This document shows positions 14,637-61,017 of a DNA stretch of 64,000 nucleotides, in pieces. Under the pieces are notes generated by a model. The model did no database searches. It was given only the letters and a program-made list of their open reading frames with translations, and was not told where the DNA came from. The DNA is from an uncultured Acidobacteriota bacterium (GTDB taxonomy: Bacteria > Acidobacteriota > Thermoanaerobaculia > Multivoradales > JAHEKO01): assembly GCA_963713825.1 (NCBI GenBank), contig CAVQNG010000003.1, positions 1,568,001 to 1,632,000 of the forward strand, written 5' to 3'. A program made the position numbers and the translations under genes. How positions within the stretch are numbered: position 1 is the stretch's first letter; each line of letters starts with the position of its first letter.

Positions 14637-15473
14637 GTGAGCGAAATCGAAAGTGTGAACATTGACGGCGTCGAGCTCTATCTGGGCTCTGCGGTAGAGC
14701 AGGTGCCGCCTTGGATCGGACAACGGGAAGTCCTGATGCAGCTGCTGGCCGCTTGGTCTCGGGTCGAACCGGCAGATCTGCCGCTGAACCCCCGCCTGCT
14801 GGGCAAACCGGGTGTGGGCAAGACTACTCTCGCGTGTGCCGCGGCACGAGAGCTGAGCCTCGATATCTATATCGCGCAGGCCACCATGGACACCCGTCCG
14901 GAAGATCTCATCGTCTCGCCGGTCCTGGCACCCGGTGGCGGCGTTCGATACATGGCTTCGCCCTTGGTCTGCGCCATGGTCCGAGGGGGCGCCCTGATCC
15001 TCGATGAGGGAAATCGCATGAGCGAGAAGTCGTGGGCCTCGCTGGCTCCGCTGCTCGATCATCGCCGCTACGTGGAGAGCCTGGTAGCAGGAATTCGCAT
15101 CCCGGCGCACGACGACTTCCGCTTCGTGACGACCATGAACGAAGATGCCTCGACCTACGAGCTGCCCGAGTACATCCACTCGCGGCTGATGCCGCAGATC
15201 TACATCGACTTCCCCGAGGAAGACGAAGAGAGGGAGATTCTCCGCGCCCAGGTGCCGTTTGCTGACGGGGAGGTTGTCGAGTACGTCTTGTCATTCCTCC
15301 GGGCCGCACATGATCGAGACCTCCGCTACACCGTTCGCGATGGCATCAATCTGGTCCGCTACGCCATGAAGGTCCTCAAACGGGGTGAAGCCGAGAGTGC
15401 GCCGGATGCCGTCGATCTGGCCTTGAGACTCTCTGTGGGTGACGACCAGTTGGAGGAGTTCGAAATCTCGTGA
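14637..15473 (+). CDS. MoxR/CbbQ-type AAA+ ATPase
   Basis: Walker A GKPGVGKT, Walker B LILDEGNR, FRFVTTMN sensor I; start estimated at GTG 14637. Confidence 0.88.
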   Translation: MSEIESVNIDGVELYLGSAVEQVPPWIGQREVLMQLLAAWSRVEPADLPLNPRLLGKPGVGKTTLACAAARELSLDIYIAQATMDTRPEDLIVSPVLAPGGGVRYMASPLVCAMVRGGALILDEGNRMSEKSWASLAPLLDHRRYVESLVAGIRIPAHDDFRFVTTMNEDASTYELPEYIHSRLMPQIYIDFPEEDEEREILRAQVPFADGEVVEYVLSFLRAAHDRDLRYTVRDGINLVRYAMKVLKRGEAESAPDAVDLALRLSVGDDQLEEFEIS

Positions 15474-17476
15474 CCCGGTCGAATGACGCTGACGCCGAGC
15501 TGGACCGGGTGGCTCCGGAGGTGAGGGAGGGCATTCGCCTGGTGCCGGTCGTTCACGAGCGCATCGAGCTGGCCAGTGTGGCGCGAGGAGTCTTGGAGGC
15601 TGTGGAACCGGCGGCGGTAGCCGTTGAGCTGCCGACGACCCTCCGAGAGGCCGCAGCCCGGGCCGTCGGGAGGTTACCGTTGATTTCTCTGGTGATCTCG
15701 GAGGAACCGGGGGAAGAAGCGCTGGTGTGGGTCGTGGCGCCCGGTGACCCCCTGGTGGAGGCCATCCGGTGGGCACTCGATCACCAGAGGCCCTTCCTCT
15801 GTATCGACCCCGATCTCTCCTACGAGGAACGACACGCCGACCGGGTTCCAGACCCTCACGCTCTGTGGCAAATGGGCGTCGGCGACTATCTCCAGAGCCT
15901 GCGACAGGGTCTGCGCAGCGGTGGAGTGTCCGCAGTGGATGATCGCCGAGAAGCAGGAATGGCCTTTCATTTGCGACAGGCGCAGGAAGAGATCGCGGCA
16001 CCGATCGTGGCATTCGTCGGGGCGGCCCACCTGGAGGGCGTCCGATCTCGGCTCGATGGACCACTGGCACACCCGTTCGCACGGACCCAGCGCAGCCGGG
16101 TTCTGGTGCGGCACCTGGCTCCCGACAGTCTCACGGCATTGCTGCCAGACGCTCCGTTGGCACACGCCGTCTGGGAGCGGGTCCGAGAGGGTCAGGCTCC
16201 CACTGACGCGGAGCTCGGATCCACCCTCTCGCGGCGCCAGTCTGTGGTGCGCTTCGGTCTTCGTGTTATCCATGGGGAGCGGGGAAGCGACGAAGCTGAT
16301 CGGAGCGAGAGGCTCGTGGACTATGCCAGCAAGCACGGCACCCGAGAGGGCTTCGGTGGCGGAGTCGCTCCGGACAGGGCCCGGCTTGGCGGTGTTGTCT
16401 GGCGGATCGCGGCAGGATCGTACACCGAGCAGACCGGGGAGACCGTGGCCGCCTGGCAGAGGAGACTGTTCTTCGACTTTTCGAGGCGCTGTGCCAGGGT
16501 ACAAGGCAATCTGATGCCAGGTCTCTACGAATGGGTGATCGCGGGACGGGGTGTCGGTGATGACAACCTGGCCTGGGAGATCTTCGATGTCTCTCGAACC
16601 TTCCCTTGGCAAGAAGACCAGGCGGAGATCGAGACCGTTTCCGTCGATGGAGAGGAACTGGATCTCGGCACTCGCAAGCTAAGGTTTCGGCGCCGTTTCC
16701 TGCGCGTCAAGCAGCGGCCCGTTGCCATCCCCGTTCGGGAGCACCCTCATCCCGACAGCCCGGAGGATTGGTTGCGGGCTTTCGATTCGACCGGCCTTTG
16801 CTCCTATCCTCCCGAAGACCTGGTGATCGAGGACTACGGGCGTTTTCTGCAGCAGAAGGCCCTGTCGGTGCTGTCAGCCGAACGCAAGAGGACCGAGCCC
16901 TTCGTTTGTAGCCTGTTGGACGGGATCGACATCCGAGAGACACTCCGCAATGTCCATGAGGACCGGATCTATGTGGAGGAGAAGGGCCGAGTGCCGGGAG
17001 ATGCGGGTTCGGTCGTCGTCGTCTTCGACCGCGACGTGGACAACGAGCGCTACCCCTTTGCCATGACCTGGCTGGGGGAGCATGATCAGGAGTCGGACAT
17101 GGCGTTCTATGCCACGAATCCGGCAGATCAGGTGGTGGGTCCCGGCATGATGCGGGCCACCTACGGCGGGTTCGTGCTGACCCAACCGAGAGGCAGGCTG
17201 TCCGACGTCTGGTCGGATCCGGACTATCGATTCGCCCGCAGCAGGGCGGAGATCTTGCTGATGGCGGCTATCGACTACAGCCTCGAGAAGATCGTGGTGC
17301 ATCTGGCCTCAGACCCTCCCGTCGAGAGACTGCGCCAGTACGCCGCCGTCCAGGGCAAGCAGATCCTCCACATTCCCCTAGCCTCGCTGTCTCCCGTGAC
17401 ACTCAAGAAGATCCGTGTCATGCACATCCTCGCCGGCCACGACAAGCGCGCCATGGCCAAGGACTACATCTGGTGA
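15470..17476 (+). CDS. Hypothetical AAA+ partner: TraB/Tiki-like N-terminus and degenerate VWA-like C-terminus
   Basis: GTGA overlap with the ATPase; VAVELP, RREAGMA and FVGAAHL motifs; later GIDIRETLRN...VVVVFD. Confidence 0.75.
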   Translation: MTRSNDADAELDRVAPEVREGIRLVPVVHERIELASVARGVLEAVEPAAVAVELPTTLREAAARAVGRLPLISLVISEEPGEEALVWVVAPGDPLVEAIRWALDHQRPFLCIDPDLSYEERHADRVPDPHALWQMGVGDYLQSLRQGLRSGGVSAVDDRREAGMAFHLRQAQEEIAAPIVAFVGAAHLEGVRSRLDGPLAHPFARTQRSRVLVRHLAPDSLTALLPDAPLAHAVWERVREGQAPTDAELGSTLSRRQSVVRFGLRVIHGERGSDEADRSERLVDYASKHGTREGFGGGVAPDRARLGGVVWRIAAGSYTEQTGETVAAWQRRLFFDFSRRCARVQGNLMPGLYEWVIAGRGVGDDNLAWEIFDVSRTFPWQEDQAEIETVSVDGEELDLGTRKLRFRRRFLRVKQRPVAIPVREHPHPDSPEDWLRAFDSTGLCSYPPEDLVIEDYGRFLQQKALSVLSAERKRTEPFVCSLLDGIDIRETLRNVHEDRIYVEEKGRVPGDAGSVVVVFDRDVDNERYPFAMTWLGEHDQESDMAFYATNPADQVVGPGMMRATYGGFVLTQPRGRLSDVWSDPDYRFARSRAEILLMAAIDYSLEKIVVHLASDPPVERLRQYAAVQGKQILHIPLASLSPVTLKKIRVMHILAGHDKRAMAKDYIW

Positions 17477-17950
17477 TTGGGGGGTTGAGGCATCCGGTGC
17501 GTTGCACCGGCTGATCCTTGAAGGCTTGGGGGTTGAGCCGGCAGCACTTCGTGTCGGCCGTTCTTTGAGGGCCTGGGGGTTGAGACGGCCGATCGGACCA
17601 GGGATCTCCCCCGTCTGCGGTCTCACCCGACCATGCCCCTCCGACGAGGGAGACCCATGGCCCGATCTACCACCTTCGACACACATCAATCATCGGATTG
17701 CTGACTCACTCCCTACGCCCTTAAGCCCCTACTACCCTCACCGGTGCCAGAGGTTCGCGCGGGTGGTTCGACAGGGGGCGCCGAGTCGAGCGCAGCGCAA
17801 GGGCCACGATAGAGCACCACCAATGGGGCGCGATGACGAGACGATGTGGCGGCCCCCCATTGCAGTCTGAGTCGCCGACACCGTCCGCCTGCGGACCACC
17901 CGAACGGACCTCCACGCGATGATAGTCGCCAGTTCAGGACCCAAGCCCCA
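17461..17950 (+). repeat. Modular structured intergenic repeat, copy 1 (A array, B, C, D, tail)
   Basis: Aligns by eye with copies at about 25.5, 35, 47.2 and 59.5 kb; fills a convergent gene gap. Confidence 0.95.
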
Positions 17951-17996
17951 AAGATCAGCTGGAAGGGACGCCCGGCTGCTTCAGCCAGTTGAGCTT

Positions 17997-18758
17997 TCAG
18001 CTCAACTGGCCGTAGTAGACGTGCGTGTCGTACTCGATGTTGACGTGATCGTCGACTTCGTGGGCTTCGAAAATTTCGCGCAGGGCTCGCAGCATGTCCG
18101 TATGGCGAGGATGATTCGGACCAGGGGTGTAGGAAGACGACAGGAGGCGTGCCTTCAAACCGTCGAAACGGAAGCTCTGGTGGTTGTCGAAGGCGGCGGT
18201 TGCATAGGTCTCACTGCCGTAGAAGGCCTGAATCTCCTTGGATCCGATCCGAGTGTGATCCACCTTTTCGTAGTCGGTTCCGTAGGCCAATAGCAACTCT
18301 TCGTAGGCTTGCAGAAATGGGCTACCCAGCTTTCTGCGATCGTTCCAGATGAGAACCACCCATCCTCGAGGCCGCAAGATTCTGGCGAACTCGCGGCGTG
18401 CCGCCTTGGCGTCGAACCAATGGTAGGCCTGGCCGGCCGCAATCAGGTCAGCGGAATCGTCGGGCAGCCCAGTGTCTTCGGCGGTGCCGTCGAGGCTGGC
18501 GAAGAGGCGGTAGGTTGCCAGCAAGGCCTCCCCGGCGCGCCGCATTTCGACGTTGGGCTCCACCCCATAGACTCGACAACCGTTGTCCAGGAAGAGTCGG
18601 CTCAGAATTCCGGTTCCAGAGCCGATGTCGGCCACGGCCCATCCCGGTGTGAGGCCGCATTCGACTTTCAAGAGCTCTGCGACTTCCTGTGGGTAGGCGG
18701 GCCGGGAGCGGACATAGCTCTCGACACGCCGGCCGAATCGATCTGCTGGTTTCGTCAT
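17997..18758 (-). CDS. Class I SAM-dependent methyltransferase
   Basis: VADIGSGTG motif I, GVEPN, AGQAYHWFD. Confidence 0.92.
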   Translation of the reverse strand: MTKPADRFGRRVESYVRSRPAYPQEVAELLKVECGLTPGWAVADIGSGTGILSRLFLDNGCRVYGVEPNVEMRRAGEALLATYRLFASLDGTAEDTGLPDDSADLIAAGQAYHWFDAKAARREFARILRPRGWVVLIWNDRRKLGSPFLQAYEELLLAYGTDYEKVDHTRIGSKEIQAFYGSETYATAAFDNHQSFRFDGLKARLLSSSYTPGPNHPRHTDMLRALREIFEAHEVDDHVNIEYDTHVYYGQLS

Positions 18759-25494: not shown

Positions 25495-25836
25495 GAGGTC
25501 CGTCCGGGCGGCCCGCCGGGGGACGGCGTCGGCTACTCAGACTGCAACGGGGGGCCGCCACCTCGTCTCGTCATCGCGCCCCGTCTCCTGTGCTCTATCA
25601 AGGACCTTGCGCAGCGCTCGACTCGGCGCCCCCTGTCGAACCACCCGAACGAACCTCTGACACCAACAGGGGCATAAGGGCTTAGGGCAGTAGGGGCGTA
25701 AGTGGTGTGGATCGGCTGCTCCCTCGAGCCCCAAAGGGCGGCCGACACGGAGTGCGGCCGGTTCAACCCCCAAGCCCTCAAGGATCGTCCGGAGGTACGA
25801 CCGGACGCCTCAACCCCCAAAGGACCGACTAGGTCC
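25495..25836 (-). repeat. Modular structured intergenic repeat, copy 2 (A array, remnant of B, C, D)
   Basis: Reverse complement matches the A and D modules of copy 1; convergent gap. Confidence 0.95.
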
Positions 25837-34020: not shown

Positions 34021-34899
34021 ATGAGGGTTCACATCGTCTGTCAGAGGTGGAAGCAGGACCGCGTACTGTCGCGGTTCGCGCGGTACCTCGTCGATCGCTG
34101 GGGTTGGACGGTGAGCCGGCGTCCCGACCGCAAGGCTGATCTGAACTACTGGATTGCGTTTCTGGAATGGGAACGGTTCAAGGGCTTCGATCGCACCCCG
34201 ACCGTGGCCTTCATGACCCATCCAGAAGACGAGATCGACAACCCCGAAAAGTACCGGCTGTACTTCGACGCCGCCCGGGAAGCCGACCTGAGGATTTGTA
34301 TGAACGAAGTCAGTCGGCTGGAGCTCGAGGCTCTCTACGGCCTGTCCATGCAGGCTCCTCTTCCCCTGGACTGCGAGCATTTTCCTCTCAAATCGGCGTC
34401 GCCAGGAGGATCGCCCCGCGTCGGCTTTTCGGGCAAGGCCTATCGAAGCGGTCGCAAGGGCGAAGACCTGGCCGAGCATCTTGTCGAGGACTTCCAGGAC
34501 CGCTGCGAGTTTGCGGCCTCGGGAAAGAAGTGGCCCTGTCCGACCCGGTGGTACAGCTGGGAAGAAATGCCACAGTTCTTCCAAAGTCTGGACATCTACG
34601 TCTCTACCTCGCTGGTCGAGGGCGGGCCCATGCCAACCCTGGAGGCTCTTGCTACCGGTCTACCGGTCGTCATTGCAGCAGGCGTTGGACTGCATGACGA
34701 GCTGCCAGCCGTGAAGGGCATCTATCGGTACGAGAAGGGCAACTACGAAGATCTACGAAGAGCCCTCGATCAGGCTCTAAGCGAGTACCGCGATATTGAC
34801 CGCGAGCTTCTCCGCCAGGCGACGAGCCCCCACGCTGTCGAGAATTGGTGCGTCGCGAACCGGAGTGCCTTCGAAGATCTACTGGCTCATCGGCCTTGA
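34021..34899 (+). CDS. GT-B/GT4-like glycosyltransferase
   Basis: STSLVEGGPMPTLEALATGLPVV (Ex7E motif); start estimated. Confidence 0.8.
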   Translation: MRVHIVCQRWKQDRVLSRFARYLVDRWGWTVSRRPDRKADLNYWIAFLEWERFKGFDRTPTVAFMTHPEDEIDNPEKYRLYFDAAREADLRICMNEVSRLELEALYGLSMQAPLPLDCEHFPLKSASPGGSPRVGFSGKAYRSGRKGEDLAEHLVEDFQDRCEFAASGKKWPCPTRWYSWEEMPQFFQSLDIYVSTSLVEGGPMPTLEALATGLPVVIAAGVGLHDELPAVKGIYRYEKGNYEDLRRALDQALSEYRDIDRELLRQATSPHAVENWCVANRSAFEDLLAHRP

Positions 34900-34932
34900 G
34901 GACTTGAAGCGATTCCGCCCACTCACCCGTCC

Positions 34933-35400
34933 TGGGGCTTGGGTCCTGAACAGACAACGATCTTCGTGTGGAGGCCCGTCCGGGTGGTCCGCAGGCGGAC
35001 GGTGGCAGTTTCACAGACTTTGACGGGGGACCGCCACCTCGTCTCGTCATCGCGCCCCGTCTCCTGTGCCCTATGAAGGATCTTGCGCTGCGCTCGACTC
35101 GGCGCCCCCTGTCGAACCACCCGAACGAACCTCTGGCACCAATGGGGCGTAGGGGGTGAGTCATCTGCCGGGGTCTCGATGTGTCTCGATGGCGGTAGAT
35201 CGGGTCATGGGTCTCCCTCGTCTGAGGGGCATGGTCGGGTGAGGCCGTAGACGGGGGAGATCCCTGGTTCGATCGGCCGTCTCAACCCCCAGGCCCTCAA
35301 GGACCGGCTGGAGCTGGCGACAGCCGCCTCAACCCCAAGCCCTCAGAGACCAACCGAAGGAACTTCGGCTGCCTCAACCCTCAGGGCGGGTGGGAGGTCC
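34933..35400 (-). repeat. Modular structured intergenic repeat, copy 3 (complete; overlaps the rsmI 3' end)
   Basis: Reverse complement is collinear with copy 1, including the tail TTCAGGACCCAAGCCCCA. Confidence 0.95.
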
Positions 35401-36063
35401 AATGACTGCGGTGAACTCACCCTTGATGGATGGGCGCGTGGCCAGGTCTGCGTGGATCTCGGAGATCCGGCCACGGAGTGTCTCTTCGTGCAGCTTGGTG
35501 AGCTCACGGCCAACCGCTGCTGGCCGGTCCCCCCAGGTCTCCTGAGCATCTTCGAGGCTCGCGACGATGCGGTGGGGCGACTCGAAGAAGACCAGGGTGT
35601 GCTCGAGATCGGAGAATCGAGCGAAGAACCGTCGTCGCTTGCCTTGGCGGGGTGGGGGAAAGCCGAGGAAGCTGAAGGGATAAGGGGGTAGCGCTGAGAC
35701 GACGAGGGCCGCAAGAATCGCCGAGGCTCCCGGCACGTGCTCCACAGGGATAGCCTTCGCCGCCGCCTCTCGAACCAGCACAAAGCCGGGGTCGGAGAGT
35801 AGTGGCGTTCCGGCGTCGCTGACCAGTGCTACCTGGAGTCCGGAGTCCAACTGTTCGAGAAGGTGTGGGACTCTCTGTCGCTCGTTGTGCTCGTGAAGGG
35901 AGATCAGCCTGGCCTCGATCCCGAGGCGAGCGAGCATGCGGCCGGTATGACGGGTGTCCTCGCAAGCGACGAGGTCGGCCTCGACGAGGGTGCTCCGAGC
36001 TCGCGGTGACAGGTCTTCCAGATTGCCGATGGGAGTGGCGACGATGGTCAGCTTTCCCGGCAT
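35374..36063 (-). CDS. rsmI: 16S rRNA C1402 2'-O-methyltransferase (short form)
   Basis: ATPIGNLED, CEDTR, VSDAGTP..SDPG, FESPHR and RELTKLHE motifs. Confidence 0.96.
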   Translation of the reverse strand: MPGKLTIVATPIGNLEDLSPRARSTLVEADLVACEDTRHTGRMLARLGIEARLISLHEHNERQRVPHLLEQLDSGLQVALVSDAGTPLLSDPGFVLVREAAAKAIPVEHVPGASAILAALVVSALPPYPFSFLGFPPPRQGKRRRFFARFSDLEHTLVFFESPHRIVASLEDAQETWGDRPAAVGRELTKLHEETLRGRISEIHADLATRPSIKGEFTAVIGPPTRPEG

Positions 36064-44941: not shown

Positions 44942-47206
44942 TTGTCTGTGTTCGTCGCACCTGAGATAGGACCGCGGCTATCGGTCGGTCTTTGCGTCAG
45001 CCTTCTTGTGCTGACTGCTGCTGGTGTGTTGGCGCAGGCAAGCCCCAGGCCCAGAACCGAGTACTCGATCCCCCGCACGGAGTCACCGATCAATGTCGAT
45101 GCCAAGCTCGACGAGCCGGCGTGGCAGGAAGCTGCCCGAATCGACCTGCAGTATGAGACCCACCCTGGCGAGAACATCCCCGCACCGGTAGAGACCGAGT
45201 GTCTGGTTACCTACGACAGCAGCCACGTCTATATCGCTTTCAGGGCCTACGATGAGAATCCGCAAGCGATTCGAGCCCACATGGTCGACCGGGACACGGC
45301 GTTCAATGACGATTTCGTCGGCGTCGTGCTGGACACCTTCAACGACGAGCGCCGGGCCTTCGAGTTCTTCGTCAATCCTCTCGGCGTACAGATGGATCTG
45401 TTCAACGACGATCTGAGCCACGATGAGACAACGTCCTGGGACGCGATCTGGTCCTCGGCAGGTCGCATCACCGAAGAGGGGTATGTTGTCGAGTTGGCGA
45501 TTCCCTTCCATCAGCTTCGATTTCCGAGTGGTGGTGAGGAGCTGACCTGGGGCTTCGACGCGGTGCGCTTCTATCCGCGCAGTGACCGGGTCCGGATCGC
45601 TAGCCAGCCCATGGATCGAGGAGTGAGCTGCTACCTCTGTCAGATCTCGAAGGCCACCGGCTTCGAGGGCGCCAGCGCCGGGCGCAACATCGAGCTGGTG
45701 CCGACGCTGACCGCGGGTCGAACCGATGAAAGAGAGGACTTTCCCGAGGGCGACCTACAGGACGGCAGCGCAGAGACTGAGCTGGGTTTGACGGCCAAAT
45801 GGGGCATTACCCCGAGCCTGACCGGAAATCTGGCTCTGAACCCCGACTTCTCTCAGGTCGAAGCCGATGTCGCTCAGCTGGATGTCAACAACCCATTTGC
45901 CCTGTTCTACCCGGAACAGAGACCCTTCTTCCTCGAGGGAGCCGACATCTTCTCGACTCCACTCGATACGGTGTTCACACGCAATGTGGCGGACCCGTTG
46001 TGGGGAGGCAAGATCTCCGGCAAGCAGAGCATCCATGGTCTCGGAGTCTTCGTGGCTCAAGACCAGGTCACCAACCTGCTGTTTCCTGGCAGCGAAGGTT
46101 CTGACAGTGATTCCTTTGACTTCAAGACGATCGACTCGGTCTTGCGATACCGCCGCGACTTCGGAAACGCATCAGCCATAGGGGCCCTGTTTACAGGCCG
46201 GGAGGGTGACAACTACCACAACCGGGTGGCTGGCGTCGACGGCGTCTATCGCATCACCGATACCCACTCCCTACGATTCCAGGCCCTCGGTTCTCAGAGC
46301 CTCTACCCAGACGACATTGCCGAGGACTACGACCAGCCAATGGGTAGCTTCAGCGACCAGGCGTACCTCTTGGGGTACAGCCATGACTCGAGGAACTGGC
46401 GGGGCTGGGCGCGGTACCAGGACATCGGTGAGGATTTCCGCGCCGACATGGGCTTCATGCCTCAAGTCGACTTTCGAGAGGGCTCGACCGGCTTCGAACA
46501 CAATTGGTGGGGAAAGGAAGGCGACTGGTACAACCGCATCGAGCTCGGTAGCGAGCTCGAGCGCAACGAAGACCAGACAGGGCAGCTGTTGCAGCAGGAG
46601 TGGAGAGTGTGGAGTGGTGTCGGCGGTCCTCTACAGTCCTTTGTCTGGCTCAATCTGTCCCTCGCAGAGCAGGGGTACGAAGGCGAAGTCTTTAACGCCA
46701 ACGCTGTGCGAACCTTCTTTCGAATTCAACCGAGCGGCATGTTCTCGTTCGATATGTTCTCTCGCATTGGCGGGCAGGTGGATTTCGACAATGTTCAGCA
46801 AGGCGATGCTGTGAGGCTCGTGCCGAATTTTAGGCTCAACCTGGGGCGCCATGTTCAGGCGCAACTACGCCACACCTATGAGCAGCTGGACGTCGACGAT
46901 GGACGGCTCTTCACCGCCAACTTGAGTCAGTTGCGCTTCGTCTATCAGTTCAACATCCGCACCTTCGTTCGGGCGATTGTCCAATACACCGACATCGATC
47001 GGGACTTGAGTCTCTATGACGATCCCGAGGATGTAGACGCCAAGACCAATCAGGTCTTCAGTCAGTTGCTGTTCTCTTACAAGGTGAATCCGCGCACCGT
47101 CCTCTTCCTGGGCTACTCGGACAACCGGGAAGGCGACGAGAACAACGACCTCCTACAAGAAGACCGATCCGTCTTCCTGAAGATCGGCTACGCCTGGAAT
47201 CTGTAG
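44942..47206 (+). CDS. CBM9-like plus DUF5916-type outer membrane protein
   Basis: DAKLDEPAW, FEFFVNPLGVQMD, LNPDFSQVEAD and EQRPFFLEG motifs; aromatic barrel-type C-terminus; start uncertain. Confidence 0.8.
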   Translation: MSVFVAPEIGPRLSVGLCVSLLVLTAAGVLAQASPRPRTEYSIPRTESPINVDAKLDEPAWQEAARIDLQYETHPGENIPAPVETECLVTYDSSHVYIAFRAYDENPQAIRAHMVDRDTAFNDDFVGVVLDTFNDERRAFEFFVNPLGVQMDLFNDDLSHDETTSWDAIWSSAGRITEEGYVVELAIPFHQLRFPSGGEELTWGFDAVRFYPRSDRVRIASQPMDRGVSCYLCQISKATGFEGASAGRNIELVPTLTAGRTDEREDFPEGDLQDGSAETELGLTAKWGITPSLTGNLALNPDFSQVEADVAQLDVNNPFALFYPEQRPFFLEGADIFSTPLDTVFTRNVADPLWGGKISGKQSIHGLGVFVAQDQVTNLLFPGSEGSDSDSFDFKTIDSVLRYRRDFGNASAIGALFTGREGDNYHNRVAGVDGVYRITDTHSLRFQALGSQSLYPDDIAEDYDQPMGSFSDQAYLLGYSHDSRNWRGWARYQDIGEDFRADMGFMPQVDFREGSTGFEHNWWGKEGDWYNRIELGSELERNEDQTGQLLQQEWRVWSGVGGPLQSFVWLNLSLAEQGYEGEVFNANAVRTFFRIQPSGMFSFDMFSRIGGQVDFDNVQQGDAVRLVPNFRLNLGRHVQAQLRHTYEQLDVDDGRLFTANLSQLRFVYQFNIRTFVRAIVQYTDIDRDLSLYDDPEDVDAKTNQVFSQLLFSYKVNPRTVLFLGYSDNREGDENNDLLQEDRSVFLKIGYAWNL

Positions 47207-47710
47207 GACCTTCGCCCTACCGGCGAAAGGTCCCGAGGGTTGAGGCGGCCGCCGTGCCTTCGGCCGGTCTATGAGGGCCTGGGGTTGAGGCGGCTGTCGC
47301 TTGCTCGAGTTGGCCTTTGGGGGCTTGGGGATCGAGACGGCCGATCGAACCAGGGATCTCCTTCGTCTGCGGCCTCACCCGACCATGCCCCTCCGACGAG
47401 GGAGACCCATGGCCCGATCTACCACGCTCGAGACACATTGAGAATCCGACTGCTGACGCGCCCCCTACGCCCCTAAGCCCTTACGCTCCTAAGGGTGCCG
47501 AAGGTTCGTTCGGGTGTTTCGACAGGGGGTGTGCCGAGTCGCGCGCAGCACAAGGGCCATCAAAGGGCAAGGAGGATGACGCGCGATGACGAGACAAGGT
47601 GGCGGCCCACCTCAATGAAGGGGAGGGGCTTGCCCCCTCCCGTGGGAGCCCGCAAGGGGCTCCCCTACAAAGCCGACGCCGTCCCCCAGCGAGCCACCCG
47701 GACGAACCTC
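47206..47710 (+). repeat. Modular structured intergenic repeat, copy 4 (carries an inserted REP doublet)
   Basis: A, B, C and D modules match copies 1 and 3; convergent gap. Confidence 0.95.
47617..47668. repeat. Inverted doublet of GTAG-family REP-like palindromes
   Basis: GAAGGGGAGGGGCTTGCCCCCTCCC followed by the reverse complement of GTAGGGGAGCCCCTTGCGGGCTCCC. Confidence 0.75.
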
Positions 47711-47737
47711 AGAAGACTCTAGTTGTGCAGGCTGAGC

Positions 47738-49117
47738 TCAGTTTGGAACGCGGTCGACCGAGATCTCGAGGCGCTTCATCATCTCGTGGAGCGTCGTCGG
47801 CTTGACCTTCAGCAGCTCGGCTGCGGCCTTTTGCACGCCGCCGGCGGCTTCGAGCGCCTTGACGATGAGCTGACGCTCGTAAGAGCTGACGGCCTCTTTG
47901 AAGGCGACCCCATTGCTGGGCAGCATCGCGGTCGGTGCCGGCAGGGAGTCGGGTTCGCGAACGCTGGGTGGCAGCAGATCCACGTCCAGAACGGAGCCTG
48001 ATGACAACACGACGGCGCGCTCGATCACGTTCTCGAGCTCCCGAACATTGCCGGGCCAGCGGTAGTCGAGTAGCAGCTCCATGGCCGCGGAGGAGATCTC
48101 TTCCAGAGCTTTGTCGTTCTCTTGTGCGTACTTGGTAAGGAAAGTACGGACCAGCAGAGGAATGTCCTCACTACGCTGTCGCAATGGCGGCAGCTGGATG
48201 GTAATGACGTTCAGTCGGTAGTACAGATCTTCGCGGAAAACGCCCTCCTGCACCGACTCTTCGATCCGGGCGTTGGTCGCCGCGATGATCCGGACATCGG
48301 CCTTGAGCGTCTCGACTCCGCCCAGGCGCATGAACTCCTTTTCTTGGATGACTCGCAACAGTTTGGCTTGTGTATCCAGGGGGATGTTGCCGATCTCATC
48401 GAAGAAGATCGAGCCGCTATTGGCGAGCTCGAAGAGTCCCTTCTTGTTGGAGACCGCCCCGGTGAACGACCCCTTGACGTGCCCGAAGAGGTTGCTCTCG
48501 AGCAGATCAGCGGGCATGGACCCCGAGTTGACGGTCACGAATGGGCCACCGGCGCGGCGCGAATGGTGATGAATGGCCTTGGAGACCAGCTCCTTGCCCG
48601 TGCCGCTCTCACCAAGGATCAGGATGTTGCTCTTCGCCGGCGCCGCCAGCTGGATGAGCTCGAAGACTTTCTGCATCGGCTTGCTCTTGCCGATGATGTT
48701 GTCGAAGCCGTAGCGTTGGCGCAGCTGCTCCTTCAACGATCGGTTCTCCGAGGTCAATCGATGCTGGTCGAGGCCCTTGCGGATCGTCAGCAGCACTTCC
48801 TCGTTCTTGAAGGGCTTCGGGATGTAGTGGAAGGCACCTTCTCGCATCGCCTCGATGGCGCCTTCGATGGAAGAGAACGCCGTGATTACGATGACGACCT
48901 GATCCGGGTCCGAGGCCCTGACCCGTTTCAATACTTCCAGGCCAGAGGTGTCGGGAAGCATCAGGTCCAACAGGATGAGCTCGACCTCTTCCTTGGCCAG
49001 CAAGTCGAGAGCCTCGCGCCCGGTTCCCGCACTGAGCGTCGAATAGCCCTCCTTGGTCAGTAGGGAGGTCAGGACGTCTTGCAGGATCTCTTCGTCGTCG
49101 ACGATCAGAATGCTCAT
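47738..49117 (-). CDS. Sigma54-dependent response regulator (NtrC/AtoC family)
   Basis: Receiver domain, GESGTGKE, GSFTGA, WPGNVRELEN, C-terminal HTH. Confidence 0.95.
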   Translation of the reverse strand: MSILIVDDEEILQDVLTSLLTKEGYSTLSAGTGREALDLLAKEEVELILLDLMLPDTSGLEVLKRVRASDPDQVVIVITAFSSIEGAIEAMREGAFHYIPKPFKNEEVLLTIRKGLDQHRLTSENRSLKEQLRQRYGFDNIIGKSKPMQKVFELIQLAAPAKSNILILGESGTGKELVSKAIHHHSRRAGGPFVTVNSGSMPADLLESNLFGHVKGSFTGAVSNKKGLFELANSGSIFFDEIGNIPLDTQAKLLRVIQEKEFMRLGGVETLKADVRIIAATNARIEESVQEGVFREDLYYRLNVITIQLPPLRQRSEDIPLLVRTFLTKYAQENDKALEEISSAAMELLLDYRWPGNVRELENVIERAVVLSSGSVLDVDLLPPSVREPDSLPAPTAMLPSNGVAFKEAVSSYERQLIVKALEAAGGVQKAAAELLKVKPTTLHEMMKRLEISVDRVPN

Positions 49118-56998: not shown

Positions 56999-59443
56999 GT
57001 GAGAGATCCAGTGCATCTGTTGTCTCTGCTGGCGTTCCTGGTGACCGGCTTCCATCTGGCGCTTGGCGTCTACCTCTTGAAGTCCAACCCACGGGCAGCG
57101 CTGAACCGGATCTTCTTTCTGATCTGCGTCAGCTTGGCTTTCTGGTCGTTCGGATTCTCCTTTCTCCAGGGCGCTCCGACCAAGGAGGAGGCCTGGTTCT
57201 GGTTCAAGGTGTCGTCACCGGGATGGACGCTGACACCGTCGCTTCTCCTGCACTTTCTGATTCTTCTGGTGCGGAAGGAGAAGCTCCTCGATCGGCGGGG
57301 CGCCTACGTGGCGCTCTACGCACCGGCTTTCTACTTCTTCGGGCGGGCACTGTTCGGAGAAATGGGGGTCGTCGATTTCGTGGAGACCCCATTCGGCTGG
57401 TCGGACGTCTACGGTCCACTCTCGGTCGGCTACGCGATCTACCTGGTCTACTTCTCGAGCTACATCCTTTATGGGCTGTGGCTGGTCTGGCAGTTTGGAC
57501 GCCAGAGCGAGGTGATTGCCGAGCGGCGGCAGGCGGCTGTGCTCGTCTATTCGGGGGCCCCTGTCCTGGCAGCGGTCGCCATTTCAGGGATCTTCCTGCC
57601 CTGGGCCGGGATTCGCAATCCTCCGGAAGTGGCGCACCTGATCGCCCTGCTCTGGGTCCTGGTGATCTGGAATGCGGTGTCGAAATACAAGCTGATGTTG
57701 ATGACCCCTGCGGCGGTCGCACCGAACATCCTGCGGACCATGGTAGACGCCGTGATCCTTCTGGGACGCGACAGGACGATCGTGACGTCCAACAAGGCTG
57801 CTCGTAGACTTTTCGCAGCTTCGGGCCGGAAGCTCGAGGGTCTCAGCCTGGGGCAGGTCTTCGGCGGCCCCGATTCGGAGACGGCACTCGAAACGGAGCG
57901 CTTCCTTCTCGACGGCGGGGAGAACCTCGAGGTCTCCTTTCGGCCTGAGGATGGCGATGAGGTAGTGCTCAGGGTCTCGACCTCCGAAGTTCTCGACTAC
58001 TTCGAGCAGCCCATGGGCGAGGTACTGGTGTTTCGGGACGTGACTGCCGAGAAGAGGGCCGAAGCCGATCTACGCTACCTGGCAACGCACGATTCGCTGA
58101 CGGATTTGCCGAACCGGTCGCTCCTACAAGATCGACTCGACAGAGCGGTGAGCCGATCGCAACGAGAGAGCGTCGGTTTCGCGGTCATCATGTTCGATCT
58201 CGACGATTTCAAGCGGGTCAACGACGACATCGACCATGTGGTTGGCGATGCGGTTCTGAAAACGACCGCCAGGCGCCTGGCACACTGCGTTCGTGGTCTC
58301 GACACGGTCTGTCGATTGGGCGGTGACGAATTCCTGCTCGTGGTCGAAGACCTGGTCGAGGTTGATGAGGCAGACATCATCGCCCGGCGAATCATGCGGT
58401 CGTTTGAAGAACCCATGAACGCCCTGGGTCACTCGATCACCGTGACGGGGAGCATCGGAATCAGCACCTATCCGGCCGACTCCGACGAGCCGACCACCCT
58501 GGTGAAGATGGCTGATCTGGCACTCAACACCGCGAAACAGGCGGGGCGGGGGCTGTATCGCTTCTTCTCACCGAATATGGAGGCTTCGAACCGTCAGCGG
58601 ATCCAGATCGAGAACGGGCTGCAGGACGCCATCGGGAAGGAAGAGCTCTACCTCGCATACCAACCCCTCTTCGACTTCGAGGCGGGTCATATCGCGGGTG
58701 TCGAGGCCCTGATTCGCTGGAACTCTCCTGAGCTGGGCCAACTCGCCCCGATGGAGTTCATTCCGGTGGCCGAGCGCTCGGGACTCATCGTCAAGGTAGG
58801 GGAGTGGGTGTTGCGCACAGCCTGTCAGCAGAACGTGGCCTGGCAGGAGGCTGGACTTCCCAAGGTACCGATCAGTGTCAACGTCTCGGCCCGGCAACTT
58901 CGCGAGGAAGACTTCGCCCAGAGGGTGGTCGAGATCATCGAAGAAACCGGACTCGATCCCAGGTTGCTCGAGATCGAGTTGACCGAGACCGCTGTCATGG
59001 AGAACCTCAGTCGGTCGCGAAAGATCCTGGATGCGCTGGCTGATGCAGGGGTCCGATTGGTCATCGATGACTTCGGTACGGGTTACTCCTCACTCGCCCG
59101 ACTGCGACAGTTACCCATCGAGGCCATCAAAGTGGACCGCTCGTTCATCGAGAACATCTGTGAAGACGAACGGGACCTGTCCCTGGTGATGGCCATCGTG
59201 GCCATGGCCAGGAACCTGGGTCTTCAGGTCGTCGCCGAAGGCGTCGAGACACTCGATCAGCTCAAGGCGCTCAATGGCCTGGAAGACATGCCTCTGCCCA
59301 GATTCCATTGTGACCGGGTACAGGGTTTCCTCTTTAGCAAACCGGTCGAGGGTGCCGAGCTGGCGCGTTTGTTCACCCGCAGCGAAAGCGAAGTCGAGCC
59401 CTTCCGCAGCATCCGACGCGTCCTGCACGAAACAGCAGCGTAG
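56999..59443 (+). CDS. 7TM-PAS-GGDEF-EAL c-di-GMP enzyme (start 56990 or 56999)
   Basis: N-terminal hydrophobic helices, HDSLTDLPNR, intact GGDEF, EAL, DDFGTGYSS, KVDRSF and EGVE motifs. Confidence 0.93.
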   Translation: MRDPVHLLSLLAFLVTGFHLALGVYLLKSNPRAALNRIFFLICVSLAFWSFGFSFLQGAPTKEEAWFWFKVSSPGWTLTPSLLLHFLILLVRKEKLLDRRGAYVALYAPAFYFFGRALFGEMGVVDFVETPFGWSDVYGPLSVGYAIYLVYFSSYILYGLWLVWQFGRQSEVIAERRQAAVLVYSGAPVLAAVAISGIFLPWAGIRNPPEVAHLIALLWVLVIWNAVSKYKLMLMTPAAVAPNILRTMVDAVILLGRDRTIVTSNKAARRLFAASGRKLEGLSLGQVFGGPDSETALETERFLLDGGENLEVSFRPEDGDEVVLRVSTSEVLDYFEQPMGEVLVFRDVTAEKRAEADLRYLATHDSLTDLPNRSLLQDRLDRAVSRSQRESVGFAVIMFDLDDFKRVNDDIDHVVGDAVLKTTARRLAHCVRGLDTVCRLGGDEFLLVVEDLVEVDEADIIARRIMRSFEEPMNALGHSITVTGSIGISTYPADSDEPTTLVKMADLALNTAKQAGRGLYRFFSPNMEASNRQRIQIENGLQDAIGKEELYLAYQPLFDFEAGHIAGVEALIRWNSPELGQLAPMEFIPVAERSGLIVKVGEWVLRTACQQNVAWQEAGLPKVPISVNVSARQLREEDFAQRVVEIIEETGLDPRLLEIELTETAVMENLSRSRKILDALADAGVRLVIDDFGTGYSSLARLRQLPIEAIKVDRSFIENICEDERDLSLVMAIVAMARNLGLQVVAEGVETLDQLKALNGLEDMPLPRFHCDRVQGFLFSKPVEGAELARLFTRSESEVEPFRSIRRVLHETAA

Positions 59444-59673
59444 GACTCCCCCTCCCACCCTGAGGGTTGAGGCGGTCGGCCAAGGAGTGCCGACCGGTCC
59501 TCGAAGGCTTGGGGGTTGAAGCGGCCGGACCTGTGCCGGCCGGTCTTTGAGGTAGTGGGGCAGTGAGGGAGACCCCTTGCCCGATCTACGTACCGGCTGG
59601 GTGCATCAAGACTCCCTTAGGAGAGTCACACTACACCCCTACGCCCCTAGGCCCTTTACGCCCCTTTACGCCC
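59443..59673 (+). repeat. Modular structured intergenic repeat, copy 5 (A array, 3' arm of B, expanded C; no D)
   Basis: GAGGGTTGAGGC...GGCTTGGGGGTTGAA units, GAGGGAGACCC..GCCCGATCTAC and a CCCCTACG tract. Confidence 0.88.
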
Positions 59674-61017
59674 TCAACTCAATGGCAAGCGGAGTCGAGC
59701 GCAGCAGCCGCGGCGATCGGCACGGTTCTCGAGGGTCAGGCTGCCGCCGTGCGCTTCCGCGATCTGCCGGCTCAAGACCAGGCCGATGCCGGAGCCTCCC
59801 GGTTTCGTCGTAAAGAATGGGACGAAGAGATTGGCGCTCGCGGGCAGGCCTGGCCCCTCGTCGCGGACCAGCACCTCGCAGCTGTCGGCTCGGCGCGACC
59901 AGCTGATCTGGACACCACCGCCCGTCTCGAGTGAGGCCTCGACGGCGTTCTTGACGATGTTGATCAGGGCCTGCTCGACCTGGGCCCGGTCGGCTTGTAC
60001 GCTGAGCGTTGGGCCCTCGGTGACCTCGACGCGTAGTCGGGACTCCATCGCGGCGGCGTGCTTGACCGCGCCCGGGATGGGCAGCGACTCGAGAGTGGGC
60101 TCCGGCAGGCGCGCCAGCTGCGAGTACGACGCCATGAATCGGCTCAAGGCCTCCGATCGCTGGCGAATCACATCGAGGCCACTGCGAAGGTCCTCATGCC
60201 ACTCTTCGGCCCCGGGCTGCTTGTCGGTGAGTCGGTGCAAGGTGTCGGCGGTGGACTTGATCGGGCCGAGGGAATTGTTGAGCTCGTGTCCCAGGACTCG
60301 GATCAGACGCTGCCAGGTCTGGCGTTCTTCCTGTCGCAGCGTCTTGCTCAGATCGGTGATGACCAGCAGCTGATGGGGCATGCCTTCCTGCCTGAAGGTA
60401 CTTCGCCGGACCCTCCAACGTCCGACGGCGCCTGGAAAGGCGCGCTCGACTGTGCCGGGAAGCTCGCCGTCGAGCCAGTCTTCCAGACCCAACTCCTCCG
60501 CCGAGCTACCGAGCAGCCGGGACGAGGGGCGAGCCAGGATTCTCTCGCCGGCACGATTGACCAGTCGCAGCCGGTGCTCCGGGTCGAAGGTGAAGACCGC
60601 GACGTCGATCTCGGCCATCACGGCACGTAGTAGAGCCGAGGCCTCGAGCGCGCCGAGGCGTTGATCGCTCAGGCTCTCGCTCAGCAGGTTGATCTCCCGA
60701 AAGACGTCGTCCAGTGCGTCGTTGACATCCTGTCGGTGGCCTCGCAAGGAATAGTCTTCCTGTCGCAGGGCCTCGAGAAGGCTTGAAATGGTGCGCAGGG
60801 AGTAGACGGCTCGGCGCCGCACCAGGACGGCCAGGCCGACCCAGGAGATCGCCAGGAGGATCGTCAGCGTCCACTGCGTCGAAGGCGGGAGGTTCGAGGT
60901 CCAGAGGAGAGCCAGGCCGAGGATGGAGCCTGGCAGCCCCACTGCCAGTGCCAGCAGAAACAGGCGTCGCTCGCTGCTCAGGTGAAAGCGGGGACTCGGC
61001 CGCATACCGGACCCCAT
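59674..61017 (-). CDS. Sensor histidine kinase
   Basis: Two TM segments, PAS, GHELNNSL H-box, KNA.EA, DEGPG and GSGIGL motifs. Confidence 0.93.
   Translation of the reverse strand: MGSGMRPSPRFHLSSERRLFLLALAVGLPGSILGLALLWTSNLPPSTQWTLTILLAISWVGLAVLVRRRAVYSLRTISSLLEALRQEDYSLRGHRQDVNDALDDVFREINLLSESLSDQRLGALEASALLRAVMAEIDVAVFTFDPEHRLRLVNRAGERILARPSSRLLGSSAEELGLEDWLDGELPGTVERAFPGAVGRWRVRRSTFRQEGMPHQLLVITDLSKTLRQEERQTWQRLIRVLGHELNNSLGPIKSTADTLHRLTDKQPGAEEWHEDLRSGLDVIRQRSEALSRFMASYSQLARLPEPTLESLPIPGAVKHAAAMESRLRVEVTEGPTLSVQADRAQVEQALINIVKNAVEASLETGGGVQISWSRRADSCEVLVRDEGPGLPASANLFVPFFTTKPGGSGIGLVLSRQIAEAHGGSLTLENRADRRGCCARLRLPLS

What the first reader, a model, noticed from the sequence alone, without database searches (positions are those of the whole stretch)
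17479..17590. Module A: mini-array of conserved linkers around sequence-variable but always self-complementary spacers
Seen: a linker of about G(G/A)TC(C/T)TTGAGGGC(C/T)TGGGGGTTGAG recurs at a 45-49 nt period. TTGA positions: 17485/17533/17580; 47240/47285/47332 (last is TCGA); 59467/59516; on the minus strand 25810/25763 and 35374/35329/35282. The ten intervening segments differ in sequence yet nearly all fold: CCGGTGC-gtt-GCACCGG, GTCCGG-n8-CCGGAC, AGCCGAAG-ttc-CTTCGGTT, CGGCTG-n10-CAGCCG, CGGCCG-n9-CGGCCG, CGGTCGGC-n8-GCCGACCG, CGGCCGG-n7-CCGGCCG. This is the inverse of CRISPR, where the repeat folds and the spacer does not. Inference: selection keeps hairpin shape and length plus a fixed single-stranded motif, as expected for repeated protein-binding or processing sites on RNA or ssDNA.
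Basis: partly seen in the sequence, partly recalled or inferred. Interest (0 to 1): 0.8.

Follow-up and report, generated by a model that had tools for sequence, protein, structure and literature searches.

The report
Stop-codon-hugging hairpin repeat arrays
This is the gene-proximal part of a genus-specific family of small intergenic repeats, GC-rich hairpins joined by a conserved G-rich linker, that sit directly after stop codons and look like a new relative of the REP/BIME and BOX repeats of other bacteria rather than a new kind of system.

Summary
The genome (5.4 Mb, 62% GC, placed in Thermoanaerobaculia) holds 267 units in 165 arrays of 1 to 4 hairpins, usually 2.

- **Conservation.** Linkers are much better conserved than hairpins.
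- **Pairing.** Stems pair more often than shuffled or slid controls and show two-sided changes. However, only 7 of the 10 window spacers fold better than shuffles. About 40% of units carry a mismatch at stem pair 3.
- **Hairpin diversity.** The "variable" hairpins fall into about six recurrent families built on a shared CGnCCG/CGGnCG stem base.
- **Position.** Arrays begin a median of 15 nt after the stop codon of a same-strand gene. In 20 genes the stop is the linker's own TGA. Arrays are enriched between convergent genes.
- **Distribution.** The family is restricted to one genus, where hairpin number and sequence change quickly at orthologous gene ends.
- **What it is not.** I found no match to any Rfam family and no REP-type transposase arrangement.

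My best reading is a REP/BIME- or BOX-like mosaic repeat acting as a 3'-UTR stem-loop element (terminator or RNA stabiliser). That function is inferred, not shown.

The parts
17480..17584 (+). Array 1 with two units. Linker head 17480-17489, hairpin 17490-17514, linker 17515-17537, hairpin 17538-17561, linker 17562-17584. It starts 4 nt after the TGA stop (17474-17476) of the 668-aa ORF 15470-17476.
   Evidence: (z -3.10 and -2.00)
17935..17985 (-). CTGAAG head 17984-17979, imperfect hairpin 17978-17955, linker-like tail 17954-17935. It follows the TGA stop (17999-17997) of the convergent methyltransferase ORF 17997-18758 (-).
   Evidence: nhmmer E 2.3e-5
25719..25820 (-). Array 2 with two units. 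Hairpins 25808-25785 and 25761-25738, full linker 25784-25762. It starts 8 nt after the TAG stop (25831-25829) of a Maf-like gene.
   Evidence: (z -2.93, -3.69)
35281..35383 (-). Array 3 with two units. Hairpins 35372-35349 and 35327-35303, linkers 35348-35328 and 35302-35281. The TGA inside the first GGGTTGAGG (35376-35374) is the stop codon of the tetrapyrrole-methylase ORF 35374-36063 (-).
   Evidence: (z -4.47, -0.79)
47235..47336 (+). Array 4 with two units. Hairpins 47245-47268 and 47290-47314 (the second is decayed and does not fold), linkers 47269-47289 and 47315-47336. A gene-specific hairpin (47207-47233) precedes it, directly after the TAG stop at 47204-47206.
   Evidence: (z -0.24, +1.57)
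59461..59571 (+). Array 5 with two units. Hairpins 59472-59498 and 59521-59544, linker 59499-59520, then a run of G-rich octamers 59545-59571. A C-rich leader (59444-59460) lies between the TAG stop (59441-59443) of a GGDEF-EAL gene and the array.
   Evidence: (z -3.53, -2.23)
47337..47711 (+). Context only: other repeat modules that often follow module A. B is about 47337-47460, C is the octamer run 47462-47493, D is 47494-47608, E is 47612-47670, and F is 47671-47711. Each has its own copy number and occurs with or without A.

Best explanation
**What it is.** Module A is a genus-restricted, dispersed mosaic repeat of the REP/BIME/BOX kind. Each unit is 45-49 nt. It consists of a G+T-rich, C-poor linker and a GC-rich imperfect palindrome. 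The linker is itself a short run of degenerate G-rich 7-8-mers, yTTGAGGGC-yTGGGGG-TTGAGGC. The palindrome has a stem base of CGnCCG...CGGnCG with variable upper stems and loops. Units stand head to tail, usually two per array.

**Shown here.** The arrays sit in the sense orientation immediately 3' of stop codons, and sometimes supply the stop codon. They lie mostly at the ends of transcription units.

**Inferred.** The arrays are transcribed as the start of the 3' UTR. There the stem-loops would act like REP or BOX hairpins, attenuating or terminating transcription and blocking 3'->5' exonucleases. The organism rarely has canonical hairpin-plus-U-tract terminators.

**Inferred.** Copies spread and turn over by copying and by recombination or slippage between the conserved linkers, which swaps, adds and removes hairpin "cassettes". 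Pairing of the stems is maintained either by selection or by the copying mechanism.
For: **Repeat family.** 267 units in 165 arrays. The linker with up to 2 mismatches occurs 47 times in this genome and 96 times in a congener, against 0-1 in each of the other 299 genomes of the class that were sampled. The composite element matches 5 of 5 same-genus genomes and only 2 of 25 other genomes, both weakly.

**Polarity** (using my own crude ORF calls, 3726 ORFs):
- 153 of 165 arrays are intergenic. They occupy 79 of 760 convergent, 62 of 2176 co-directional and 12 of 752 divergent intergenic regions.
- In convergent regions the array's 5' end is nearer to the sense gene's stop than its 3' end is to the other gene in 72 of 79 cases. 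In short regions this holds in 17 of 17.
- In co-directional regions 42 arrays are sense and 20 antisense (p 0.007).
- Of 121 arrays with a same-strand gene upstream, 95 start within 30 nt of its stop. In 20 the stop lies inside GGGT[TGA]GG, and 16 more abut it.
- The rule is replicated in loci from other species: 29 of 32 convergent cases, 16 sense against 8 antisense, median distance 18 nt.
- Where one intergenic region holds two or more arrays, 26 of 27 are arranged "+ then -", each facing away from its own gene.

**Turnover at orthologous gene ends.** 0 to 5 hairpins of different sequence occur at the same gene end in six species whose flanking genes are 76-86% identical.

**Terminators.** Canonical terminator-like sites follow only 250 of 3724 gene ends, and 79 of 104 array-bearing 3' regions have none.

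**RNA hint.** One 141-nt insert in an RNA-library contig spans 47210-47350.

**Upstream genes.** They are unrelated ordinary genes.

**Known analogues.** REPs lie downstream of ORFs between convergent or unidirectional genes (PMC3733652, passages read). A model REP acts as both terminator and stabiliser (bioRxiv 10.64898/2026.03.23.713779, abstract read). BOX elements carry a variable tandem number of boxB modules (PMC3049150, passages read).
Against: - **No sign of sense-RNA wobble tolerance.** In stems, G-T against A-C cells number 33 against 38 in this genome and 15 against 34 in other species.
- **No consensus fold.** RNAalifold on the 135-unit alignment predicts no consensus pairs at all.
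- **Many units fold poorly.** Three of 10 window spacers fold no better than shuffles. Only 65 of 185 and 56 of 143 distinct cores have a fully paired 6-bp base. Stem pair 3 is unpaired in 55 of 135 units.
- **Weak terminator signature.** The hairpins lack a proper U-tract. The terminator scan flags 1 window hairpin, and my own scan flags 21 of 104 arrays.
- **Thin RNA evidence.** It is a single low-depth contig that could be carried-over DNA.
- **Gene calls are crude.** They are my own GC3-filtered ORFs, not a gene finder's.
- **No mobilising enzyme identified.**
Confidence: 0.55

Rival explanations
1. Selfish DNA with no host function. On this reading module A is a MITE-like or REP-like mobile or recombining repeat. 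It accumulates where insertions are tolerated, at gene 3' ends without promoters. Its palindromes are needed, or generated, at the DNA level, for example as ssDNA or cruciform substrates or by templated arm-to-arm correction.
For: - The family is restricted to one genus and turns over fast.
- There is no G-U excess over A-C in stems, so the pairing looks strand-symmetric.
- Many copies are decayed.
- Arrays cluster with other repeat modules in the same intergenic regions.
- 13 hairpin cores are identical across species.
Against: - Simple tolerance does not explain why the 5' end, and not the 3' end, abuts the sense gene's stop in 72 of 79 and 29 of 32 convergent cases.
- Nor does it explain why neighbouring free G-rich octamer runs show no such polarity (20 of 44).
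- I found no terminal inverted repeats, target-site duplication or sharp 5' boundary.
- The Y1 transposase genes are not near arrays and are not flanked by repeats.
Confidence: 0.25
2. The conserved single-stranded linker is a repeated binding or processing site presented between hairpins whose only requirement is their shape. The binding partner could be a dedicated RNA- or ssDNA-binding protein, or the ribosome's anti-Shine-Dalgarno sequence through the linker's GAGG and GGGGG motifs.
For: - The linker consensus is identical in this genome and in five other species' loci, while hairpins vary.
- Not only the G runs but also TTGA is near-invariant.
- The position is fixed, directly after stop codons.
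- Pairing is kept through changes on both sides.
Against: - No partner has been identified.
- Arrays are very short, and 67 of 165 are single units.
- Linker conservation can also come from continuing copying and recombination.
- No processed about 47-nt RNA species was seen. The data could not have shown one, because they were contigs only.
Confidence: 0.12
3. G-quadruplex and hairpin hybrids. The G runs of successive linkers would form a quadruplex, with the hairpin as a duplex-containing loop. That would explain fixed G tracts beside hairpins of free sequence.
For: - Linkers are 47% G and 12% C on the sense strand.
- They grade into runs of G-rich octamers such as (GGGGCTTA)n. There are 174 such runs against 13 in a reversed control, and these fit the canonical quadruplex pattern. 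That pattern is recalled, not tested here.
- At one orthologous gene end an octamer run takes the place of the array.
Against: - Non-G positions (TTGA) are as conserved as the G runs.
- The standard linker has only one run of 5 G and one of 3 G.
- Free octamer runs show no gene polarity.
- No quadruplex prediction or assay was run.
Confidence: 0.04

Closest known systems
REP sequences and BIMEs (bacterial interspersed mosaic elements) of Proteobacteria
   Same: - High-copy, short, GC-rich imperfect palindromes in intergenic DNA.
- Mosaic combinations of a few palindrome types with conserved linker motifs.
- Located downstream of ORFs, between convergent and co-directional genes.
- Compensatory changes keep the stems paired.
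- Proposed roles as 3'-UTR terminators and stabilisers.

Sources: PMC2817692 and PMC3733652 (passages read); bioRxiv 10.64898/2026.03.23.713779 (abstract read).
   Different: - Units stand head to tail. Classical REPs form inverted dimers or alternate in orientation, and head-to-tail dimers are called negligible in PMC3733652.
- There is no unpaired GTAG or CGTC tag.
- No RAYT gene is flanked by the repeats.
- The linker, not the palindrome, is the best-conserved part.
- The 5' end is strictly next to the stop codon.
Pneumococcal BOX elements (boxA-boxB(n)-boxC)
   Same: - A modular composite repeat in which a module of about 45 nt is tandemly repeated a variable number of times, and the number changes between strains or species.
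- Predicted stem-loops if transcribed.
- Clusters with other small repeats in intergenic regions.

Source: PMC3049150 (passages read). Here.
   Different: - A different phylum, and no sequence relation was shown.
- BOX has boxA and boxC ends with inverted-repeat character, and its boxB copies are alike. Here the tandem units differ in their hairpins, and no flanking A/C-type ends were found.
MIRU-type tandem intergenic repeats of mycobacteria (recalled, no paper read)
   Same: Tandem intergenic units of about 46-100 nt at gene ends within or between operons, varying in number, with overlap of stop codons. These properties are recalled.
   Different: As recalled, MIRUs are near-identical direct repeats with no defined hairpin-plus-linker anatomy. 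No comparison was run here.
CRISPR arrays
   Same: Regular alternation of a conserved segment and a variable segment.
   Different: - At most 4 units per array, and 165 dispersed loci.
- The variable segments are palindromes drawn from recurrent families, not unique spacers.
- Arrays are tied to stop codons.

Sources.

Membership tests
REP / BIME (REP-RAYT system) | Short (20-40 bp) imperfect palindrome, high copy number, extragenic | tested here: met
   267 units; 153 of 165 arrays are intergenic; the hairpins are about 24-27 nt.
REP / BIME (REP-RAYT system) | Conserved unpaired GTAG or CGTC tag at one end of the palindrome (PMC3733652, PMC2817692) | tested here: not met
   The head next to the stem is GGGTTGAGGC in the consensus of this genome and of other species. 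CGTC occurs only as one of several stem variants: the CGTCCG arm appears in 32 of 185 distinct cores.
REP / BIME (REP-RAYT system) | A RAYT (Y1 transposase) gene flanked by two inverted copies of the repeat | tested here: not met
   There are four PF01797 loci in the genome. None lies within 6 kb of an array, and their 350-nt flanks hold no repeated sequence.
REP / BIME (REP-RAYT system) | Palindromes in inverted or alternating orientation within clusters | tested here: not met
   Units within an array are direct, head to tail. Inverted pairs exist only as separate arrays, each next to its own gene.
REP / BIME (REP-RAYT system) | Location downstream of ORFs, between convergent or co-directional genes | tested here: met
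   10.4% of convergent, 2.8% of co-directional and 1.6% of divergent intergenic regions carry an array.
BOX-type modular repeat | Internal module of about 45 nt in a variable tandem number between conserved end modules with inverted-repeat character | tested here: inconclusive
   A variable tandem number is seen: 1-4 units here and 0-5 at orthologous sites. No conserved boxA/boxC-like end modules were found, and the 5' boundary is ragged.
Intrinsic (Rho-independent) terminator | GC-rich stem-loop followed directly by a U-tract | tested here: inconclusive
   The stem is followed by AUCUUUGAGGG. The scan tool flags 1 window hairpin, and my own scan flags 21 of 104 arrays. Termination itself cannot be tested here.
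CRISPR | Long arrays of an identical repeat with unique spacers | tested here: not met
   Arrays hold at most 4 units. The "spacers" belong to recurrent families, and 13 are shared between species. I did not search for cas genes.
Any curated RNA family (Rfam 15) | Covariance-model match | tested here: not met
   0 matches at gathering score over the whole window. 0 matches at E<=1 over 47150-47760.

The most novel reading that the evidence does not exclude
The arrays could be a genus-wide 3'-UTR signal read by a dedicated factor or by the ribosome. On this reading a near-invariant single-stranded G/U-rich linker (UUGAGGGCyUGGGGGUUGAGG) is displayed between hairpins whose only requirement is to pair. 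It is placed so that it begins at, or even contains, the stop codon. It would mark about 3% of genes for a shared post-termination fate, such as ribosome handling, 3'-end processing or protection. The hairpin "cassettes" would be exchanged freely through the linkers. The evidence does not exclude this. The linker consensus is identical across species that differ by about 20% in their genes, the polarity is strict, and stems change on both sides.
Probability: 0.12. Interest if true: 0.8.

Novelty: new variant of a known kind. Interest (0 to 1): 0.45.

Why it matters
Small dispersed repeats of the REP, BIME and BOX type have mostly been studied in Proteobacteria and Firmicutes. This family extends the kind to Thermoanaerobaculia (Acidobacteriota), a class known mainly from metagenomes.

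It also has an unusually clean rule. The arrays start at the stop codon, run in the sense direction, and have a conserved linker between hairpins that are free to change. That makes the old question of what such repeats do directly testable with sense and antisense constructs and with unit-number series.

There is a practical side as well. These arrays and their companion modules fill many intergenic regions, supply the stop codons of about 20 genes, and probably break metagenome assemblies of this genus.

Tried and rejected
- **Fuzzy-regex census of the linker**. I replaced it with an nhmmer profile.
- **CRISPR-like reading.** Rejected because arrays are short, dispersed and built from recurrent hairpins.
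- **Integron attC or gene-cassette reading.** Rejected because the upstream genes are unrelated ordinary genes with orthologues at the same places in congeners. No integrase search was run.
- **SECIS or recoding reading** (a hairpin after TGA). Rejected because stop-to-array distances take many values and all three stop codons occur.
- **REP-RAYT membership.** Rejected.
- **Module A arrays as terminal inverted repeats of one larger element.** In paired cases the left and right arrays carry different hairpins and each abuts its own gene, so I read them as two separate 3' arrays.
- **Replication-strand explanation of the polarity.** GC skew is positive across the whole window, and the six window arrays split 3 plus to 3 minus, so polarity follows genes rather than the replication strand. 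This rests on the window only.
- **RNA against DNA level from wobble pairs.** No G-T excess over A-C was found, so the question is not settled.
- **Loop asymmetry.** TTCG sits at 35 hairpin centres against CGAA at 2, among 407 distinct cores. Units are directional copies, so this carries no information on RNA folding.
- **RNAalifold** gave no consensus structure.
- **RNA-library contigs**. Only run X18 covers the array, with one contig. X17, X19 and X20 cover only flanking genes or short conserved pieces. The absence of cover elsewhere is not evidence.
- **Literature.** Searches for Thermoanaerobaculia plus repeat, Acidobacteria plus extragenic palindromic and Acidobacteriota plus miniature inverted-repeat found no description of this family. 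A search for the report that REPs close to stop codons affect translation found nothing, so that point is recalled only. Supplementary files of papers were not consulted.

Full report
**1. The observation**

The sequence at 17479-17590 reads as follows: stop codon TGA (17474-17476), three bases, then GGGGGTTGAG, a 25-nt palindrome, the linker TCCTTGAAGGCTTGGGGGTTGAG, a 24-nt palindrome, and the linker TCTTTGAGGGCCTGGGGGTTGAG.

- The 20-nt linker has 6 matches with up to 3 mismatches in the window, against 0.01 expected.
- In the whole genome (5,419,041 bases in 38 contigs; the window is C3:1568001-1632000), 62 of the 77 neighbouring GGGTTGA pairs that lie under 200 nt apart are spaced 45-49 nt.
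- A profile built from the 63 units defined by that spacing finds 267 units at E<=1, a lenient cut whose 90th percentile of E is 0.05. They group into 165 arrays: 67 with one unit, 95 with two, 2 with three and 1 with four.
- Six arrays lie in the window, one more than reported. The extra one is a single unit at about 17935-17985 on the minus strand.

**2. Do the spacers fold, and are they variable?**

Seven of the ten window spacers fold with z between -2.0 and -4.5 against 200 dinucleotide shuffles. Three do not (z -0.79, -0.24 and +1.57). Over all 267 units the mean energy is -10.6 against -6.6 kcal/mol for shuffles, and 133 of 267 are matched by at most 5 of 100 shuffles.

I then aligned the spacers by their two linkers only, so that the alignment did not lean on structure. 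This anchored 200 of 267 units, giving 185 distinct spacers.
- Stem positions 1-7 pair in 1018 of 1295 cells (78.6%), against 21-46% when the partner is slid.
- The six-pair base is fully paired in 65 of 185 spacers, against a permutation mean of 30 and a maximum of 47 in 2000 permutations.
- Rarer 5' arms go with their own complements: CGGCTG with CAGCCG, CGCTCG with CGAGCG, CGGTCG with CGACCG, and CACCCG with CGGGTG.

An independent set from other species gives 56 of 143 fully paired, against a mean of 25.9 and a maximum of 40.

The session's pair counter was run on 135 units. These were the 10 window units plus the 125 best-scoring of 186 distinct units from other species, so they are the better-preserved ones.
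- 89.6% of cells are paired, against 82.3% in shuffles.
- All 7 pairs show changes on both sides.
- 61 cells are changed on both sides, against 14.0 in shuffles (0 of 500 shuffles reach any of these values).
- Slid versions pair at 16-52%.

Results against a strong structural reading:
- RNAalifold predicts no consensus pair on the same alignment.
- Stem pair 3 is unpaired in 55 of 135 units.
- G-T cells do not exceed A-C cells: 33 against 38, and 15 against 34.

The spacers are not free sequence either. They share the stem base and fall into about six loop families. These families have positional preferences in two-unit arrays:
- TCGCTTGCTC occurs 23 times in second position and 2 times in first.
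- Y-T-Y-C-G tips occur 20 times in second position and 5 times in first.
- GCTCACCGC occurs 14 times in first position and once in second.

Thirteen cores are identical between this genome and other species. Per-position information is high in the linker (about 1.4-2 bits) and low to moderate in the hairpin. The consensus is the same in this genome and in the other species.

**3. Context**

Module A is one of several repeat modules that occur together or apart. A blastn search with the copy at 47200-47720 covers module A about 87 times, B about 40, C about 72, D about 83-91, E about 40 and F about 75 times. Fifty-three of 195 clusters hold A alone.

For gene context I used my own crude gene calls: ORFs of at least 100 aa with a coding-like GC pattern, 3726 ORFs covering 83% of the genome.
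- 153 of 165 arrays are intergenic.
- They sit in 79 of 760 convergent, 62 of 2176 co-directional and 12 of 752 divergent intergenic regions.
- The array's 5' end lies a median of 15 nt from the stop of a same-strand gene.
- In convergent regions the 5' end is the nearer end in 72 of 79 cases, and in 17 of 17 short regions. In co-directional regions 42 arrays are sense and 20 antisense.
- In 20 genes the stop codon is the TGA of GGGTTGAGG, and in 16 more the stop abuts the array.
- A C-rich leader (CCCACCCGCCCACCC-like) or a gene-specific hairpin often lies between stop and array.
- Where a region has two or more arrays, 26 of 27 are arranged plus-then-minus, each next to its own gene.

The upstream genes in the window are unrelated: a Maf-like protein, a tetrapyrrole methylase, a GGDEF-EAL protein, a CBM9/DUF5916 protein, a methyltransferase, and one with no family match.

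**4. Distribution and evolution**

An exact-match scan of one genome per species found the linker many times in contigs of five Thermoanaerobaculia/Acidobacteriota assemblies and only once each elsewhere.
- The composite element matches 5 of 5 genomes of the same genus. Of 25 other relatives it matches 2, both weakly.
- The linker with up to 2 mismatches occurs 47 times here and 96 times in a congener. It occurs 0-1 times in each of the other 299 sampled genomes of the class, the same as the reversed control.

In the fetched loci from other species I found 195 units. Of these, 192 were kept (3 ran off a locus end), giving 102 arrays: 28 with one unit, 61 with two, 10 with three and 3 with four. 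Of the 102 arrays, 30 lay at a locus edge and 11 lay inside a called ORF. Among the remaining 61, the same polarity holds: 29 of 32 convergent cases, 16 sense against 8 antisense, and a median distance of 18 nt.

At the five orthologous gene ends of the window, the flanking genes are 76-86% identical to congeners but the arrays differ in number and sequence.
- After the gene ending at 47206, the six-species series has 2, 3, 3 and 4-5 hairpins where sequence was available. The first hairpin is GGCCGG/CCGGCC in two species and GGTCGG/CCGACC in two others.
- After the gene ending at 25829, one species has lost its own stop and uses the element's TGA. Two others carry a run of G-rich octamers that starts inside the stop codon, in place of hairpins.
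- Linkers can be longer and are then plainly runs of 7-8-mers such as TGAGGCAG, TGAGGGCT and TAGGGGCT.
- Such runs occur 174 times in the genome against 13 in a reversed control. When free of hairpins they show no gene polarity.

**5. What it is not**
- No Rfam family matches.
- The four Y1-transposase genes are not near arrays and are not flanked by repeats.
- Canonical hairpin-plus-T-run terminators are rare in this genome (250 of 3724 gene ends) and are absent from 79 of 104 array-bearing 3' regions. The consensus scan flags only one window hairpin.

**6. RNA evidence**

Four RNA-library runs, held as contigs, were laid on 46300-48300. One run has a 161-nt contig made of adapter, window 47210-47350 with two differences, and adapter. 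That is a 141-nt insert starting 4 nt after the stop codon and spanning the gene-specific hairpin and the array. It is a single low-depth record and DNA carry-over cannot be excluded. I treat it as a hint only.

**7. Reading**

- **Shown:** a genus-restricted, polar, stop-codon-proximal repeat of hairpins and G-rich linkers, with excess pairing and fast turnover.
- **Inferred:** it is transcribed as the start of the 3' UTR and works as REP and BOX hairpins are thought to work (terminator or attenuator, and exonuclease barrier). It spreads and reshuffles through its conserved linkers.

The closest known kinds are REP/BIME and BOX. It fails the REP membership tests on tag, transposase association and orientation. 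I therefore call it a new variant of that kind, not a member of those families (PMC2817692, PMC3733652 and PMC3049150, passages read; bioRxiv 10.64898/2026.03.23.713779, abstract read).

Noticed in passing
window 47494-47711 (also 25690-25500 minus, 17760-17900): Modules D to F look like a separate MITE-like element. By eye, the start of D (GAGGTTCGTTCGGGTGGTTCG...) and the end of F (...CCGCCCGGACGGACCTC) are inverted repeats of about 40 nt. The module appears in the opposite orientation at orthologous sites in congeners. I ran no repeat tool on it.
   Followed up: partly
genome-wide; window 47462-47493, 59545-59571, 59631-59674: Runs of G-rich octamers, such as (GGGGCTTA)n, GGGGCGTA and GGCAGTGA. 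There are 174 runs of at least 3 units against 13 in a reversed control, and 154 are intergenic (TRF rows). The module A linker is a short member of this class. Free runs have no gene polarity.
   Followed up: partly
window 34801-35300 against L120 (G004:C174): A tract of about 500 nt is 98-100% identical between this genome and a congener, while the flanking genes are 76-80% identical. It covers the last module A linker, modules B to F and the last 100 nt or so of the convergent gene. It could be recent exchange between species or an assembly or binning artefact. One edge falls in the linker.
   Followed up: partly
window 59444-59460, 35385-35400; many genomic sites: A C-rich leader (CCCACCCGCCCACCC-like) lies between the stop codon and the first linker in roughly a dozen arrays. 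Its role is unknown.
   Followed up: no
window 17986-18008 (minus strand): A perfect hairpin, CCAGTTGAGC-tgaaa-GCTCAACTGG, spans the stop codon of the methyltransferase ORF. It is followed directly by the missed module A unit.
   Followed up: no
genome-wide: Canonical hairpin-plus-T-run terminators follow only 250 of 3724 crude gene ends, so this organism probably relies on other ways of ending transcripts.
   Followed up: partly
L111-L114 (G000:C3:1031156-1032097 and three others): There are four solitary Y1 (IS200-like) transposase-domain genes of about 311-314 aa. They have weak PF01797 scores (27-35 bits) and no repeated flanks.
   Followed up: partly
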